A DNA stretch of 64,000 bases from a virus (lineage: Duplodnaviria; Caudoviricetes), in IMG/VR virus record IMGVR_UViG_3300029305_005724, positions 1 through 64,000 of that record; one strand, 5' to 3'. Under the pieces are notes generated by a model. The model was not told the DNA's origin. It did no database searches and saw only the letters and a list, made by a program, of their open reading frames with translations. Position 1 is the first letter of the stretch; each line of letters begins with the position of its first letter. Of the stretch, positions 2,403-58,650 are shown in pieces. A program made the translations under genes and the position numbers.

Positions 2403-2504
2403 AAGACACGAATCTCCTTTCTTTAACTTAATACAATGTTCGCTTTATGAGGCTTTACGGAGAAAATTATACAAATGCTATATAAAGTTTAATGATATTT
2501 TCTC

Positions 2505-2516
2505 AACATTTTATTA
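2505..2516 (+). promoter_or_regulatory. AR9-type late promoter motif AACA-N6-TA (representative)
   Basis: Also at 2429-(minus), 5806-(minus), 11148-(minus), 15201-(minus), 15266, 17644, 18955, 21300-(minus), 27259, 31781, 36191, 37807, 39049, 54023, 56838, 58487-(minus), 58523, 58690, 61505; each oriented toward a downstream gene or RNA. Confidence 0.75.
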
Positions 2517-2577
2517 ATGAGGCGGTGGATAATATAATTATCCACCGCTATTTATTTTTGAAAGTGAGGATTTTAAT

Positions 2578-4004
2578 ATGGCTAATGCAATTCTAAGCCG
2601 AGGAAACTCCCCTATCAGGGGGGGGGGGGTAAAATAGGCGATATTAAGTACACTCAGCGTACATTAACCCCTGATTGGAAAAGGTGCGATGGTACACTTA
2701 TCGATTATATTGATATATCTCCAGAATATGCTGCACTTGCAGATGGGGATGTGTTTACTAGCGGAGAGTGTAAAACCTATCTAAATAACTATTCCAGAAT
2801 GTCTCAACAGATGAAAGACTTGTATGACTCTAAAGAGCATAGTAACGATAATTATATCTTCTTCTGGGACAATGGAAATAACCAAGGCTGTGGATTCTTG
2901 TATGAAGAATGGTCTGCAGTTCATTTTTCAAGATATATTCATATAGTCTTTGAAAAAATTGATAAAACTATTGTCGATATGAATACATTAATAGATGCTG
3001 GTAACTTTATGACTGTTGAAGATTGGAAAGGCTCACTATATTATGGATCTGAATCTCCAATATATACAAGCTTAGTGCATATATGTACATACAGAACTTG
3101 TAATAATAATTTCGCCATATTGCTTCATACGTATAAAGACTATATTAATCAAAATGGTGAAGTTTGCATTGACAATGTATATTTCTGTGGTTTAAATTTA
3201 GAAACTGGTGTATCGAATTTTAGAGTTTCTAGCACTCTAGCAGATGGTGGTGGATATGGTTCTGATATCAATAATCATAGATTTGCAATTTCAAAAAATT
3301 GTGATTCGGCATTATATATAAGTATATGGGATGTTATTGAGCATAATGATCATAAACCCGGTGTTATTAGTATAAGATTTACAAATAATATGGCATATAT
3401 TAGTGATTTTTTGTATGATTCATGGTTTAACCTGCCGCAATATTCAGACACATCATTAGTTGTAACAGAAAACGATTGCTATGGAATTGTACGATCTTAT
3501 AAAAATGATGATATTTTAGATAGTCAAGTATATCTATTTTATAGCAATAGAGATCCTATTGAATTTGAGGATGATTTTGTTGATATAGTGTTTACAAATG
3601 GTTATGCTTTACTGCATAATAATATCCCATATGTTTCTTATACTGCAACAGATTCAGCTTTAAGTACAAACGAGTACTTGATAAATATGATAGATAATAG
3701 CACTATAGTTCTTAGTTCTAGAATGGCTATTAATACTTATAAATACTATTTAGAATCTGATTATTATGAGAAAAAATATTTGATTAATAATATTGGTAGG
3801 GCTGTTGAAATTTCAGACTCTATATCTCTAGAAGAGATTGTAAATAAAGCAATGTCTGGCGGTGATATATCTTTAAATAGAAAACTCGTAAAAGAATATC
3901 AATTTGGTAATGAAAAATTTCTTTATTTTCCGAAAGATAAATCACTTTTTGGTCCTTCGCTTCCAGATGATGATTCTGGATATGCGTATGTAAAGACGGA
4001 ATAA
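2578..4004 (+). pseudogene. Tail-collar fibre paralog 2, frameshifted (phase-OFF) at a G12 tract
   Basis: ATG 2578 (MANAILSRGNSPIRGGG) runs into TAG 2635-2637; the -1 frame continues KIGDIKYTQRTLTPDWKRCDG into ORF 2751..4004; G10 or G13 restores one gene. Confidence 0.85.
2618..2629 (+). repeat. Poly-G (G12) slippage tract
   Basis: Directly visible; unusual in an AT-rich genome. Confidence 0.95.
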
Positions 4005-17654: not shown

Positions 17655-17735
17655 AGAGATTAAGGTATATCTTGCCATAGTCTTTACCCAAATTGTTTGA
17701 GGAGAGACTCTCAATGGGTCTCTCCTCATTTTATC
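17655..17735 (+). ncRNA. Candidate small antisense RNA / leader
   Basis: AACA-N6-TA 17644-17655, one anti-AUG module, hairpin tgaggagagac..gtctctcctca + T-run. Confidence 0.4.
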
Positions 17736-37415: not shown

Positions 37416-37588
37416 AAAGAAAATCCCATGGAGAGAAATCTCCATGGGAATAAATTTTGCAAAAAAAAAGAAAGTGGATTCCACCATCTATCCACCACCC
37501 TTATTCTAAGGTTAGTAAGATTTTATTTTATTACAATCTCTATCTTTTAATTAATTCATAAATAAAATAATAAAGATAATTAATTTAT

Positions 37589-37720
37589 AGAAAGCACGAA
37601 ATATCAGAAAGCACGAAATATCAGAAAGCACGAAATATCAGAAAGCACGAAATATCAGAAAGCACGAAATATCAGAAAGCACGAAATATCAGAAAGCACG
37701 AAATATCAGAAAGCACGAAA
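37589..37720 (+). repeat. 17-bp perfect tandem repeat AGAAAGCACGAAATATC x7 plus a 13-nt partial copy
   Basis: Directly visible; AT-rich stretch upstream and hairpin aaagggatc-tttta-gatcccttt downstream. Confidence 0.95.
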
Positions 37721-37817
37721 GGGATCTTTTAGATCCCTTTCTAGTTAATTTATATAAAAATAAAACATTATATAAGATACATTTATTCAACTTTAGACTT
37801 AGTAATAACACTTAAAT

Positions 37818-38255
37818 AAGAGCTTGCTGAATGGTATCATATAATATATTGTCCACCACGATATATCGCAATGTGTACCCCAAAGCATAACAATTGATAC
37901 ACACTTTCCATAAATTTATTAAATTATAGCAAATTCGCTTATCTGAAGCCTGACGTTGTGTCTTATGAGAAGATTATTTATTTAGGGGCTAAATAGTGAT
38001 ATAGCATTTCTATACTAATAAATTTCGAGAGATACGGGTTTAATCTCTCTAATTCGGATACTGATTGGTTTTTCACTTCCCCAAATCAAGTCCTTTAAAT
38101 TGTTATCTATTATACACAAAGCCACACCCCCACTGATGATATTGTTCCCATTTTCACAAAATCCCCAGTGAGCTCTTAAGATCTTTTAAATCCTTCGGCC
38201 GAAGGTAATGCAGATAGAGGTTTATTTCTTTTTCCTCTATCTGCATTTTCTTTTT
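37818..38255 (+). ncRNA. Candidate structured ncRNA
   Basis: AACA-N6-TA 37807-37818; taagagct pairs with agctctta at 38171-38178; terminator aatgcagatagagg..cctctatctgcatt + T-run; no ORF. Confidence 0.5.
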
Positions 38256-38321
38256 ATTTTACCAAATTTATGATTTTCTTATTGGACATAAAAATAAGAA
38301 ATATTCGAAGGAGGTAACAAT

Positions 38322-39059: not shown

Positions 39060-39180
39060 AAGGTTCTGTTTCATAGCCTAAAAACGCGTTTCATTTCAGA
39101 CTCTATCCTCAAAGAGTCAAAACACCTTCCTTAATTATATAAAATACCGGATAGCGTAAAACGTTATCCGGTATACTTTT
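39060..39180 (+). ncRNA. Candidate small antisense RNA
   Basis: AACA-N6-TA 39049-39060, two TTTCAT modules, CACCTTCCTT, terminator ataccggata..tatccggtat + T-run. Confidence 0.4.
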
Positions 39181-54066: not shown

Positions 54067-56781
54067 ATGAAATTCGCATCTATATATCTTTCAAATTATA
54101 TAGGAATTTATAATGGTATGGGTTTATATGAAATCCATATCGATATGAGTAAGTGTAAAAATCGTATAACCATTATACGTGGTGATAATGGATCCGGAAA
54201 ATCTACACTATCAAAGGCAATGAGCCTTTTCCCAGATCCTACAGATTCATTTATTCCTGGAATGCCGGCTAGAAAAGAGATAGTTCTTGTTGATGGAACT
54301 ACTCTTTATAAACTTTCTTTTGTTCACGGTGTAACAAAAAATGGTGATAGAGAGCCAACAAAAGCATACATTACCAAAACATTTGGTGATCAAATTATTG
54401 AATTAAATGAGAATGGTAATGTAACCTCATTTAAAGATATTCTTTATTCTGAGCTTGGACTTGATGCTAATTTTGCAGCTCTATCTCAATTAAGTAACGA
54501 TGATAGAGGTTTAGCAGATAAACGTCCTGCTGACAGAAAAAGATTTGTAAATTCTATTATTTCATCTTTAGATGTGTATAATGGTATTTATAAAACTTTA
54601 ACAAAAAGGTCTTCAAATTATAAATCTATGATAAATGCTGTTGTTGGAAAACTTAATGTATTGGGTGACGAAAATTCGCTTAATGCAAATTTAGAAGCTC
54701 TTGAAGAAAAAATAAATGAGTTTCAAAATAGAAAAGATGCTGCAGTTGCTGCTCTTGCAAAAGAGCAATCAACGATACAGCTTCTTGATCCTGATGGCTC
54801 AATTCAAAATGCTAATGCTTTAGTTATTGCGGAGCTTGAATTAGCTGAAAAAGATGCGCGCCAGATTCAGTCTATTATAGATGGACTTGTCATAGATAAT
54901 GGTATTAAAGTATCTGATTATTATAAAGGATATAAAATAACTGTGGATAACAAGAATTCATTAATTATAGAAAACCAAATTGCTAGAAATAGTATCGAGT
55001 CTTTGATGCGGCAAAAAGAGCAAGAAGCTGAAGAGCTCTCTGGAAAGATCCAAAAACTTAATTCTTTACAGAGCGGTTATAAATATGAGACTCTAAAATC
55101 TAAAGTAGATGAGTATGCAAAAGAACTTGGCACTATTGAAGCAACGTTTAGAGAAATTGGAATTCTAGATATGAATTCTATAAATAAAGAAGAGTATATT
55201 CTTGCGCTAGAGACCTTAAAAGATCTAGATATGTATATTTCTTCTTTTAAAGATTCTGTAAGATTAGAAGTATTAGAATCTATTGTAAATGAATATATGC
55301 AAACTGGAATTATTCCAGAAAGAAAGAATCCTGCTATGATTAGTCGCGAAATTAAGAATGCAGAAAATGAAATCGATGGCTGCAATCTTGAAAAAGCGGC
55401 TATTAATTCTAGAATTGGTTTGCTCGATAAATTAAAACTCAGACCTGAAGGATGTGTTGATAATACTTGTCCATTTATAAAAGATGCATTAGAATTTTCT
55501 GCTGGAAATCCTAAAGATCGATTAGATAGTCTTGATGCTCTTATATATTCATTAAAAGGATTTATTAATATAGAGAATGAAAAGCTTACAGATGTAGAAG
55601 AGTATAATAATGCAATAAATCAATTTGCTATTATTGTACGAGAAATTGATAAGAATGGGGCTGTACTGTCCAAGATGCCAGAAGGAGAAATGTTTAAAAA
55701 TAAATCTATCTTCTTTAGTCGACTTATTCAAGGTTATAGTTTTGAGTACATGCGTCATATTTATAAATATATTGATATGGCTAATCTATTCGATACCTAT
55801 AAACAATATAAAACTATTTATGATAGTTATAATGAAGAGCTTAAATCTTATGAAGGAAAAGTTGAAATCATTATTGCATTAAATGAAGATATTGATAATA
55901 TCAATAAAACTATTAACGCTATAATGGACAAGATAGATCCTATAAATAAAGAAATTCTTGAAAGAGAAATAAAGATAGCTCAACTTCAAGAGCTAGAAGG
56001 TGTCTATAATGCTATTATAATTCAATTAGAAAAGAAAGCCCCTATTGAAGCTAAAATAGCGGATTGTCGTTCTAAACTTCTAGATAATAATAGAAAAATG
56101 AATGACATTAATTCTGCATTAGCAAGAGCGGAAACAGCAAAAGAAAGTATTAATCAATGTAACTTTGCTTTAGCTCCTCTCATGAAAGAAAGAGATAAGG
56201 TATCGCATTCTGTACAAATGATGAAAGATTATCTTACTGAAAAAGAAGAACTACAAGCAAATTATGACTTTATAGAAACCATTAAATACTACTCGTCTCC
56301 TACAACAGGAATACAATTGGTATTTATGGAACTTTATATGGGTAAAATCATTGCATTAGCTAATGAACTATTGTCATTACTATTTAATGGGCAATTTAAA
56401 ATTCAGCCGTTTGTTATTAATGAATCCGAATTTAGAATACCTTGTTTAGGAAATGGATATTTAAATGATGATATATCCTCTATGAGTAGTTCTCAGATTG
56501 GTATGATATCTATGATTCTTAGTTTTGCATTATTGCATCATTCTAGTTCTAAATATAATATTATTAAGCTTGATGAGATTGATGGTCCTTTAGACTATAA
56601 CAATCGTATGTATTTTACAGAAGTTCTTAATAGTATAATGGATATTATGGGAACAGAACAATGCATAATGATTTCTCATAACTCAGAACTTCAAATTGAT
56701 AATTCCGATGTAATCCTTCTCAGACATGATGAAAATAATATGGATTATGAAAGAGGAAATGTTATTTGGAGATTTCAGTAA
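54067..56781 (+). CDS. sbcC: SbcC/Rad50-like SMC ATPase
   Basis: GDNGSGKS, coiled coil with C...CP hook, MSSSQ signature, LDEIDGPLD, ISH. Confidence 0.9.
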   Translation: MKFASIYLSNYIGIYNGMGLYEIHIDMSKCKNRITIIRGDNGSGKSTLSKAMSLFPDPTDSFIPGMPARKEIVLVDGTTLYKLSFVHGVTKNGDREPTKAYITKTFGDQIIELNENGNVTSFKDILYSELGLDANFAALSQLSNDDRGLADKRPADRKRFVNSIISSLDVYNGIYKTLTKRSSNYKSMINAVVGKLNVLGDENSLNANLEALEEKINEFQNRKDAAVAALAKEQSTIQLLDPDGSIQNANALVIAELELAEKDARQIQSIIDGLVIDNGIKVSDYYKGYKITVDNKNSLIIENQIARNSIESLMRQKEQEAEELSGKIQKLNSLQSGYKYETLKSKVDEYAKELGTIEATFREIGILDMNSINKEEYILALETLKDLDMYISSFKDSVRLEVLESIVNEYMQTGIIPERKNPAMISREIKNAENEIDGCNLEKAAINSRIGLLDKLKLRPEGCVDNTCPFIKDALEFSAGNPKDRLDSLDALIYSLKGFINIENEKLTDVEEYNNAINQFAIIVREIDKNGAVLSKMPEGEMFKNKSIFFSRLIQGYSFEYMRHIYKYIDMANLFDTYKQYKTIYDSYNEELKSYEGKVEIIIALNEDIDNINKTINAIMDKIDPINKEILEREIKIAQLQELEGVYNAIIIQLEKKAPIEAKIADCRSKLLDNNRKMNDINSALARAETAKESINQCNFALAPLMKERDKVSHSVQMMKDYLTEKEELQANYDFIETIKYYSSPTTGIQLVFMELYMGKIIALANELLSLLFNGQFKIQPFVINESEFRIPCLGNGYLNDDISSMSSSQIGMISMILSFALLHHSSSKYNIIKLDEIDGPLDYNNRMYFTEVLNSIMDIMGTEQCIMISHNSELQIDNSDVILLRHDENNMDYERGNVIWRFQ

Positions 56782-56848
56782 ATATTAAAGGCATGGATAT
56801 ACTCCATGCCTTTATTTTTTTTACTTATGACAATTATAACAAAATATT

Positions 56849-57255
56849 AATCAGGCTTGCGTATTGGAGTTCGCCGTGGGCGCGCAGTTGGGTTCTTTTT
56901 CATTTTGTTTCCTTTCGGGTGAAAGTTTTCCATATATACCTCTGAAGTGTTTTTACGTTTTTGCCATGCGTTGAAACTCCATTTTTTATATATCCTTTGT
57001 GAAATTTTTGCAAATCATAAAAAACTCCGTTTTTTAATATTTCTCCATACGCATTCTTTTTATCAGCCTGATTACTTACTAAGATAATAGGTCATCTGAG
57101 TCTGTCGATCTTCCTAGTCTTAGTTTGTATAATCCAAAGATCGCCAGGACGCAGCGAACCTTCAATTTTCCATTTGATTGGGGGAGGGGCGTCAATATAT
57201 CATACAAAAAATGGATACAGCAGCATCTAAGAATAGATGCTGCTGTACGCTTTTA
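56849..57255 (+). ncRNA. Candidate multi-module antisense RNA against translation-initiation regions
   Basis: Promoter motif 56838-56849; long-range closing stem; five or more CAT + anti-SD modules; terminator 57216-57255. Confidence 0.6.
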
Positions 57256-58227
57256 ATATTCATTAATCGGAACATTTCCACCTTCCATAACAAGAGGCCA
57301 AACTTGATTGATATTTCTATTTCTGGCAATACCAGCATGAATATCAATAGTAGTATCTTCAAGTAGGAATGCATCAGGCCTCGGATAGTTAGGAATGCTT
57401 GCCCCAGTACTTCTATCAATTACATCGAAATATCTTTGACCCGTGGCCTGGTTGTATTTAACAACAACCTGTATATTAGGATTCGATTCCATCCTCATTC
57501 TATTTTGTTCAGGGGTAAGTGCGGAACCACCTCCAATATTACTAGCAATCATTTCGACAGGAGCCACTCCAGGATTCTGTGAATTTACTCCGATAGTAAT
57601 ATCCTGAATAGAAGGAACGGCAGGGGTATAACTTCCAACAGGAGTGTTGACAAACGATGAATACATATCCATAATACGCATATCATCATTTTCATTTTGC
57701 TTATCAAGTTTAAGAGCTTTCATTCTATTAAGCTCAAGATTATGAGCCTGAGTAATTGTAGAATTAAGCTCTTTAATAGCAGAGATCTTTGTAGTAATAA
57801 GAGAGCTTGCTGATGCTGTAAGATTAGTAAGATACGTGAATTTATTCTTTAGTGTTTTACTAGAACGAACAGAATCAATATCCTGCTTAATTTCTGCATT
57901 AAGTTCATCTGCCTGAGCAATTGCTCCACGAATAAGAGCATTTGTTTCAGCATAAGATTTAGCATAATCAACTTCAACAACAGAAGTTGGTCCTTGAGGA
58001 GCTGGCTCGGAATCAACTCTTCCATCTATATTGAGTTTGGCTTTAACACGAGGATTAGACTTCTTTTTGTCATCTCCAGGCTTATTTCCTGAATCGATTT
58101 TTGAAGCATCATCACTATAGAAGAATCCGAAATCGACTCCTATTCCAGAGTCTTCTTTGTTTGCTGTCGTGTTGGTATCATTCATGATAAAGGGATCAAT
58201 TAATTGTCTCATTTTACTTTCCTCCAT
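57253..58227 (-). CDS. Conserved-type jumbo-phage hypothetical protein with LIDPFIM motif
   Basis: 324-aa ORF with coiled-coil middle. Confidence 0.75.
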   Translation of the reverse strand: MEESKMRQLIDPFIMNDTNTTANKEDSGIGVDFGFFYSDDASKIDSGNKPGDDKKKSNPRVKAKLNIDGRVDSEPAPQGPTSVVEVDYAKSYAETNALIRGAIAQADELNAEIKQDIDSVRSSKTLKNKFTYLTNLTASASSLITTKISAIKELNSTITQAHNLELNRMKALKLDKQNENDDMRIMDMYSSFVNTPVGSYTPAVPSIQDITIGVNSQNPGVAPVEMIASNIGGGSALTPEQNRMRMESNPNIQVVVKYNQATGQRYFDVIDRSTGASIPNYPRPDAFLLEDTTIDIHAGIARNRNINQVWPLVMEGGNVPINEY

Positions 58228-58533: not shown

Positions 58534-58650
58534 AAATGCACTGATTTGCTCAAAGGGCATTTATATTTTCCTTTTATTTTTGTATGTACTAAGAATGGTA
58601 ACTCCTAAAGACGAGGCATGTACTCTTGTAGTACATGCCTTTGTTTTTTC
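58534..58650 (+). ncRNA. Candidate small antisense RNA
   Basis: AACA-N6-TA 58523-58534, anti-AUG/anti-SD module, terminator aggcatgtact..agtacatgcct + T-run. Confidence 0.45.

What the first reader, a model, noticed from the sequence alone, without database searches (positions are those of the whole stretch)
56838..57255. Multi-guide antisense RNA: an array of anti-(RBS + AUG) modules inside a closing stem
Seen: a gene-free 470-bp gap starts with an AACA-N6-TA promoter and ends in a terminator. Its 5' end (AATCAGGCT-TGCGTATTGGAG, 56849-56869) pairs with CTCCATACGCA (57043-57053) and AGCCTGATT (57065-57073). Inside are pyrimidine-rich modules every ~15-35 nt, each with CAT (56901, 56931, 56965, 56980, 57016) followed 5-12 nt later by an anti-Shine-Dalgarno. 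Their reverse complements are convincing but different translation starts: GAAAGGAAACAAA-ATG-AAAAAGAAC, AGAGGTATAT-ATG-GAAAACTTTC, GGAGTTTCAACGC-ATG-GCAAAAACG, AAAGGATATATAAAAA-ATG-GAGTTTC, GGAGTTTTTT-ATG-ATTTGCAAAAATTTC. I found no perfect target in this window. Established: trans-acting sRNAs repress translation by occluding SD/AUG. Inference: a phage-encoded modular 'silencing array' that blocks several host (e.g. defence) or phage mRNAs at once, with shorter relatives at 17655, 37818, 39060 and 58534. I know of no described system with this architecture.
Basis: partly seen in the sequence, partly recalled or inferred. Interest (0 to 1): 0.9.

Follow-up and report, generated by a model that had tools for sequence, protein, structure and literature searches.

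The report
Jumbo-phage multi-site anti-start RNA
An uncultured giant gut phage carries a gene for a protein-less RNA with five segments that each mirror the spot where ribosomes start reading a message; it probably silences several messages at once, most likely not the phage's own, but neither the RNA nor a target has been shown.

Summary
Observation confirmed. The 471-bp gap after sbcC of a 224-kb AR9-like jumbo phage holds an AR9-type late promoter (start 56849), a stem closing 56850-57072, five anti-(Shine-Dalgarno + AUG) modules (0.53 expected by shuffling; none on the other strand), a second folded domain and a terminator. Relatives keep an ORF-less unit in the same slot, with the promoter placed at a closing stem of unrelated sequence (15 of 17). 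Their interiors are only moderately enriched in anti-start segments (39 vs 23.3±4.4), with 0-2 strict modules each, so the five-module array is lineage-specific. Thirty-four other late ORF-less units in six genomes are strongly enriched (16 vs 2.0), and the mirror extends into codon 2. No target was found. The phage's own genes pair no better than foreign phage genes in four tests, and host genomes were unreachable. Best reading: a late, 5'-protected trans-acting antisense RNA blocking translation initiation of several non-phage mRNAs (about 45%). Expression and targets are untested. No Rfam match and no paper describing it. The scan noted similar late anti-RBS RNAs in other gut jumbo phages (AI notes, unchecked).

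The parts
54067..56781 (+). sbcC/SMC-like ATPase gene, left flank of the conserved slot
   Evidence: Pfam SMC_N; best phage hits LPJP1 and AR9 SbcC, about 26% identity
56786..56814 (+). Terminator hairpin of sbcC, insulating the unit from upstream read-through
56838..56849 (+). AR9-type late promoter (AACA-N6-TA); predicted start 56849
   Evidence: consensus from PMC5312081; same motif at the stem's 5' arm in 15 of 17 syntenic units
56849..56869 (+). 5' arm of the closing stem, starting at the predicted 5' end
56891..56916 (+). Module 1: anti-AUG 56901-03, anti-SD 56910-13
   Evidence: a 19-21-nt look-alike in the syntenic unit of L015
56921..56946 (+). Module 2: anti-AUG 56931-33, anti-SD 56938-43
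56955..56981 (+). Module 3: anti-AUG 56965-67 (in a predicted loop, unpaired >0.9), anti-SD 56977-80
56971..56999 (+). Module 4: anti-AUG 56980-82, anti-SD 56993-96; overlaps module 3
57001..57030 (+). Module 5: anti-AUG 57016-18, anti-SD 57025-28 at the loop of hairpin 57018-57036
57043..57073 (+). 3' arm of the closing stem (two segments)
57078..57193 (+). Second folded domain of unknown role: stem 57105-11/57139-45, stem 57148-52/57189-93 with an inner hairpin, and 57078-85 pairing with 57117-24 (possible pseudoknot). Shared only with the L013 lineage
   Evidence: pairings compared by eye between the window and L013
57216..57247 (.). Bidirectional terminator hairpin (ends the RNA and the convergent gene)
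57253..58212 (-). Conserved 319-aa gene of unknown function, right flank; also present in distant relatives that lack the RNA
   Evidence: no Pfam or PHROG hit
58534..58641 (+). Sibling late unit upstream of the DNA polymerase gene, one anti-start module
39060..39177 (+). Sibling late unit, one weak anti-start module

Best explanation
A late non-coding RNA gene of an AR9-like jumbo phage. Inferred steps: (1) the phage's non-virion RNA polymerase starts at 56849 and stops at the hairpin near 57250, giving about 400 nt; (2) the first ~20 nt pair with 57043-57072, which hides the 5' end from exonucleases and presents a U/C-rich interior; (3) five segments of that interior each pair with a different mRNA from its SD through the AUG into the first one to three codons, block 30S loading and may recruit RNase III; (4) the targets are specific mRNAs not encoded by this phage (host genes or co-resident mobile elements), which would explain why interiors are replaced between phages while promoter, stem position and slot are kept. 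Shown here: anatomy, syntenic conservation, motif enrichment. Not shown: transcription, pairing, targets.
For: Five modules vs 0.53 expected, 0 on the other strand. Independent set: 14 syntenic units score 39 wobble-tolerant anti-start peaks vs 23.3±4.4 (maximum 36 in 60 shuffles), 5 on the other strand. 34 other ORF-less late units: 24 vs 7.0, 16 vs 2.0 and 7 vs 0.39 for SD matches of 4, 5 and 6 or more; promoter-less gaps carry 0.62 per kb vs 3.91. Mirror images look like real gene starts: codon 2 is Lys in 31% vs 9% null (p=2.6e-4), purine-A at +4/+5 in 58% vs 24% (p=1e-5), SD spacing peaks at 7-10 nt vs flat null. Promoter within -2..+2 nt of the stem's 5' arm in 15 of 17 units, with stems of unrelated sequence. 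In two close variants the modules are unchanged apart from one shorter T-run at the 3' edge of module 5. Own genes are not preferred, which points outside the phage. Masking SD/AUG is an established mode of repression (RNAIII, PMC2837412; ASOs in phiKZ infection, PMC12571901).
Against: No target identified. With the strict rule the syntenic units alone are not enriched (8 vs 6.2, p=0.28) and six of 17 carry no module. Modules are only about half unpaired in the predicted fold. The closing stems were picked by eye, L015 has no solid one, and fold energies do not favour the plus strand. 'Not own genes' is a negative result from my own gene-start calls and weak energy scoring. AR9 infection already depletes host mRNA (PMC5312081), which lessens the need for late silencing of host genes.
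Confidence: 0.45

Rival explanations
1. Broad-spectrum anti-RBS RNA: the modules are generic mirrors of Firmicutes start regions and dampen many host and phage mRNAs through imperfect pairing, not one target each.
For: Module 1 mirrors a very common start: 23-nt exact chance matches in Streptococcus satellite phages. Every module finds -16 to -28 kcal/mol partners in any of the phage genomes. Lys at codon 2 is the generic bacterial bias.
Against: The modules differ in spacer and SD and use weak SD words instead of the consensus of this clade's genes. No preference for early over late genes (p=0.47). A generic blocker would also hit the phage's own late mRNAs.
Confidence: 0.2
2. The RNA tunes specific genes of the phage itself (for example the 173001-176030 gene for module 3, or the genes starting at 112312 and 9508 for module 1).
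For: 17-bp runs across SD and AUG for module 1 and -26.8 kcal/mol for module 3. Earlier AI notes report self-targets for other late RNAs of related phages (unchecked).
Against: Foreign phage genomes give equal or better best partners (-28.2 vs own -25.0; p=0.81). No orthologous gene co-varies with the unit across six genomes: best -3.59, within the null range of -3.97 to -2.40. No genome-wide match above the null.
Confidence: 0.1
3. The functional molecule is the minus strand: a tandem set of minigenes or ribosome-binding decoys (4-28 codons), with the plus-strand RNA incidental or a cis-antisense regulator.
For: Real-looking starts with codon-2 bias. Fold z-scores are similar on both strands. 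At one sibling locus (G005 166403/166493) late promoters face each other across such a mini-ORF.
Against: No late or early promoter motif on the minus strand of the gap, and the terminator blocks read-through. The peptides are unrelated between phages; 19% of modules meet a stop within codons 2-5, against 0% of real genes and 27% of the null. The promoter is locked to the plus-strand stem arm.
Confidence: 0.1
4. A structured U-rich RNA that works through proteins (decoy or scaffold for an RNase, S1-like protein or defence factor), with anti-start words secondary.
For: What is conserved across relatives is the promoter, closing stem and U-rich interior, not the modules. The extra 3' domain is unexplained.
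Against: Does not explain paired SD-plus-AUG mirrors at correct spacing or the codon-2 bias.
Confidence: 0.1

Closest known systems
RNAIII of Staphylococcus aureus (PMC2837412)
   Same: Long Firmicutes RNA using several C-rich hairpin regions to mask the SD of several mRNAs, followed by RNase III cleavage.
   Different: RNAIII is chromosomal, encodes a peptide and is conserved in sequence. Here the RNA is phage-encoded, each module mirrors a different full SD-spacer-AUG-codon stretch, a stem closes the 5' end, and the content is replaced between relatives. No sequence match (Rfam).
Prophage trans-acting sRNAs against host mRNAs, such as DicF (review PMC12197685)
   Same: Phage-derived RNA that pairs with several host mRNAs and blocks translation.
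   Different: DicF is 53 nt, Hfq-stabilised, from a cryptic prophage. This is a ~400-nt unit of an AR9-like phage, one of a genome-wide battery under a phage-polymerase promoter.
Phage antisense RNAs acting on phage genes: sar, OOP, aQ, sas, STnc6030 (PMC12197685); AR9 late antisense transcripts (PMC5312081)
   Same: Phage-made antisense RNA; AR9 shares the late promoter type.
   Different: Those overlap or target phage genes. This unit overlaps no gene and shows no own-genome target. AR9 and LPJP1 have no such gap after sbcC.
Synthetic RBS/AUG blockers: antisense oligomers in phiKZ infection (PMC12571901), mARi (PMC8860615)
   Same: Programmable seeds aimed at the translation initiation region; multiplexing.
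   Different: Engineered, one seed per molecule. This would be a natural single RNA with five seeds.

Membership tests
Trans-encoded base-pairing sRNA | Own promoter and terminator, no protein-coding role | tested here: met
   Motifs and ORF scan; promoter position conserved in 15 of 17 units. Prediction only.
Trans-encoded base-pairing sRNA | Transcript exists | not testable with these tools
   No RNA holder listed; only DNA-type contigs laid
Trans-encoded base-pairing sRNA | Seed complementary to initiation regions beyond chance | tested here: met
   Generic start-region mirrors enriched
Trans-encoded base-pairing sRNA | Specific cognate targets with co-varying pairing | tested here: inconclusive
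   Not met for phage genes; host genomes unreachable
Any Rfam family (RNAIII, RsaE, C4, ribozymes, riboswitches) | Covariance-model score above the gathering threshold | tested here: not met
   None in the window or in 18 related loci
Cis-encoded antisense RNA / type I antitoxin | Overlaps a conserved, transcribed opposite-strand gene | tested here: not met
   Minus-strand ORFs of 4-28 codons, not conserved, no promoter motif
CRISPR-like or repeat-spacer guide array | Direct repeats separating the guides | tested here: not met
   No internal exact repeat of 12 nt or more; no tandem repeat here
AR9-like phage late transcription unit | AACA-N6-TA/G promoter in a phage with multisubunit RNA polymerases | tested here: met
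   a dCTP deaminase-like gene fits a uracil-DNA lifestyle, which was not tested

The most novel reading that the evidence does not exclude
This phage clade has a natural, reprogrammable antisense cassette: a fixed promoter-stem-terminator frame whose interior guides are swapped or copied from host mRNA starts, used to silence several host genes (for example defence genes) at once. It would be an RNA counter-defence layer of jumbo phages.
Probability: 0.25. Interest if true: 0.9.

Novelty: new variant of a known kind. Interest (0 to 1): 0.62.

Why it matters
Known phage sRNAs are mostly single-seed RNAs of temperate phages acting on phage genes. A battery of late anti-start RNAs under the phage's own polymerase, including one RNA with five different guides, would add an RNA layer to host take-over by jumbo phages. 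Once the host is known, the modules would point directly to the host genes the phage needs to silence, and the closed-stem frame would be a natural multiplex knock-down scaffold for Firmicutes.

Tried and rejected
Own-genome targets: exact matches, in-register duplexes, whole-genome wobble alignment, cognate vs foreign start regions and ortholog co-variation (94) gave nothing above the controls. Phage and plasmid BLAST gave chance hits only. Wobble patterns in viral contigs: module 5 none; module 3 seven hits, six inside ORFs in another frame and one in a 59% GC virus, taken as chance. Host identification failed: no relatives are drawn for virus records, the MAG locus is not held, both GTDB scans were empty, W handles cannot be centres, and the lipoprotein, RT and Cas7-like searches gave no host. 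No RNA holder was listed, which is no evidence on expression. In run X1 two foreign high-depth contigs touch the module region (from 56975 and 57001); one continues module 5's mirror frame without a stop for 10 codons. Similar short foreign pieces also fall in coding DNA, and the derived pattern was found nowhere, so I do not count this as evidence. Hammerhead, hairpin, pistol and twister readings of the 3' domain were compared by eye from memory and did not fit; the MAFFT alignment of that domain failed.

Full report
Context. The window is the first 64 kb of a 223,865-bp virus record, 34.6% GC. It encodes a split family-B polymerase, multisubunit RNA polymerase subunits, gyrase, an NAD ligase and SbcC; SbcC's best named relatives are from Listeria phage LPJP1 and Bacillus phages AR9/PBS1. 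A dCTP deaminase-like gene is present. Relatives come from metagenomes whose record names point to gut samples. The host is unknown; strong SD use suggests Firmicutes (inference). AR9's late promoter is AACA-6N-TA/G with the last base as start (PMC5312081).

Observation. All elements are at the stated places. The gap 56782-57252 contains, in order: the sbcC terminator, a late promoter with predicted start 56849, a closing stem of about 19 bp in three segments beginning at the 5' end, five anti-SD/anti-AUG modules, a second folded domain at 57078-57193, and a 14-bp bidirectional terminator. The module count is 5 against 0.53 in dinucleotide shuffles and 0 on the other strand; this is post hoc. 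No promoter motif lies on the minus strand of the gap. In two close variants (L004, L114) the modules are unchanged apart from one shorter T-run at the 3' edge of module 5; other changes are homopolymer lengths, two bases in the 3' domain and the terminator loop.

Relatives. Using the convergent 319-aa gene as anchor I collected about 50 loci. Most phages with 53-73% identity keep a 200-850-bp gap in the same slot; distant ones (35-44%) have only a terminator or small genes there, and AR9 and LPJP1 have no gap. In 17 units, including the window's, the late motif places the start within -2 to +2 nt of the 5' arm of a closing stem in 15 cases. The arms differ entirely in sequence between phages, and interiors align only between near relatives, apart from a 19-21-nt look-alike of module 1 in L015. 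I chose the stems by eye, and L015 lacks a solid one. The conserved object is therefore a frame (promoter, 5'-closing stem, mostly U-rich interior, terminator) with replaceable content. None matches Rfam.

Independent tests of the anti-start idea. In the 14 non-redundant syntenic units the strict motif is not enriched (8 vs 6.2; 0 on the other strand). A start-region model trained on 783 phage genes and allowing G-U pairs gives 39 peaks vs 23.3±4.4, and 5 on the other strand. An automatic search for promoter-to-terminator units without a called gene in six genomes gave 34 further units after I removed those under 45 nt, two tRNA-bearing ones, the sbcC-slot units and one overlapping opposite-strand unit. 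They hold 24, 16 and 7 anti-start modules at SD matches of 4, 5 and 6 or more, against 7.0, 2.0 and 0.39 by shuffling and 8, 1 and 0 on the sense strand; promoter-less gaps are 4-10 times poorer per kb. In 36 modules the mirror continues past the AUG: Lys at codon 2 in 31% (null 9%), purine-A at +4/+5 in 58% (null 24%), with realistic SD spacing. Stops reappear within codons 2-5 in 19% (null 27%, real genes 0%), so the mirror fades after one to three codons. That pattern suits antisense seeds better than small genes, though unannotated mini-ORFs may explain some sibling units.

Targets. None found. Module 1 forms 17-bp runs with the starts at 112312 and 9508, and module 3 a -26.8 kcal/mol duplex with the 173001-176030 gene, but foreign phage genomes give equal or better partners. 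There is no early/late preference, no orthologous gene co-varies with the unit, and whole-genome pairing stays within the null. Public phage, plasmid and viral-contig searches gave chance hits. Host genomes could not be reached. No RNA run was listed.

Mechanism. Most likely the non-virion polymerase makes a ~400-nt RNA late in infection. Its paired 5' end resists 5'-dependent decay (own knowledge of RNase J/RppH, inference), and its interior segments, partly unpaired, mask SD and AUG of several mRNAs as RNAIII does (PMC2837412) and as ASOs do in phiKZ-infected cells (PMC12571901). Replacement of the interior between phages and the absence of own targets point to host or co-resident mRNAs (inference, 0.45). 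Rivals: generic RBS dampening (0.2), own-gene tuning (0.1), minus-strand minigenes (0.1), protein decoy or scaffold (0.1); about 0.05 remains for no function.

Novelty. It works like a multi-seed trans-acting sRNA, but membership is unproven without a transcript and targets. My literature searches found no phage RNA with tandem full start-region mirrors inside a closing stem, nor a genome-wide late battery. Earlier AI notes of this scan describe similar RNAs in other gut jumbo phages; they are leads, not support. Verdict: a real feature, a new variant of a known kind, interest 0.62.

Noticed in passing
window 57078-57193; L013 about 2480-2620 (minus): A folded 3' domain with shared core words, two stems with apparent compensatory changes and a possible pseudoknot occurs only here and in the G003 lineage; no Rfam match. 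It may be a processing element or a separate RNA.
   Followed up: partly
window 58534-58641; G001 8191, G002 141156, G003 165122, G005 202456: A second conserved slot, upstream of the DNA polymerase gene, also holds a short late ORF-less unit; three of the five carry an anti-start module.
   Followed up: partly
G000 80663 (minus) and 101292 (plus); G003 67087, 67508, 67645; G004 6089; G005 47738, 95967, 123249, 166493: Further late ORF-less units with anti-start segments outside the window, including three in a row in G003 and facing promoters at G005 166403/166493.
   Followed up: partly
L045 2445-3256 and L013 2415-3259: Some relatives carry two units in tandem in the sbcC slot; L009 has a long gap there with several structured segments.
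   Followed up: no
window 37589-37720: Perfect 17-bp tandem repeat, 7.8 copies, in the 906-bp gap 37416-38321; possibly origin-related.
   Followed up: no
It has 417 homologs, and a prophage-like homolog also has an 870-bp gap behind it. It has no tblastn hit in the five relatives tested (three are incomplete), so it is unlikely to be a required partner of the RNA.
   Followed up: partly
G000 147630-151458 (L069): Reverse transcriptase (Pfam RVT_1) with a small neighbour and a 483-aa gene, an arrangement like a diversity-generating retroelement; the RT is also in G003.
   Followed up: no
window 56975 and 57001, run X1: Two foreign high-depth contigs align to the module region; one continues the mirror frame of module 5. 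Possibly chance; the contigs could not be retrieved.
   Followed up: partly
G000 142987-143991 (L068): Lipoprotein-like ORF whose nearest Atlas clusters are viral GAF-domain proteins.
   Followed up: no
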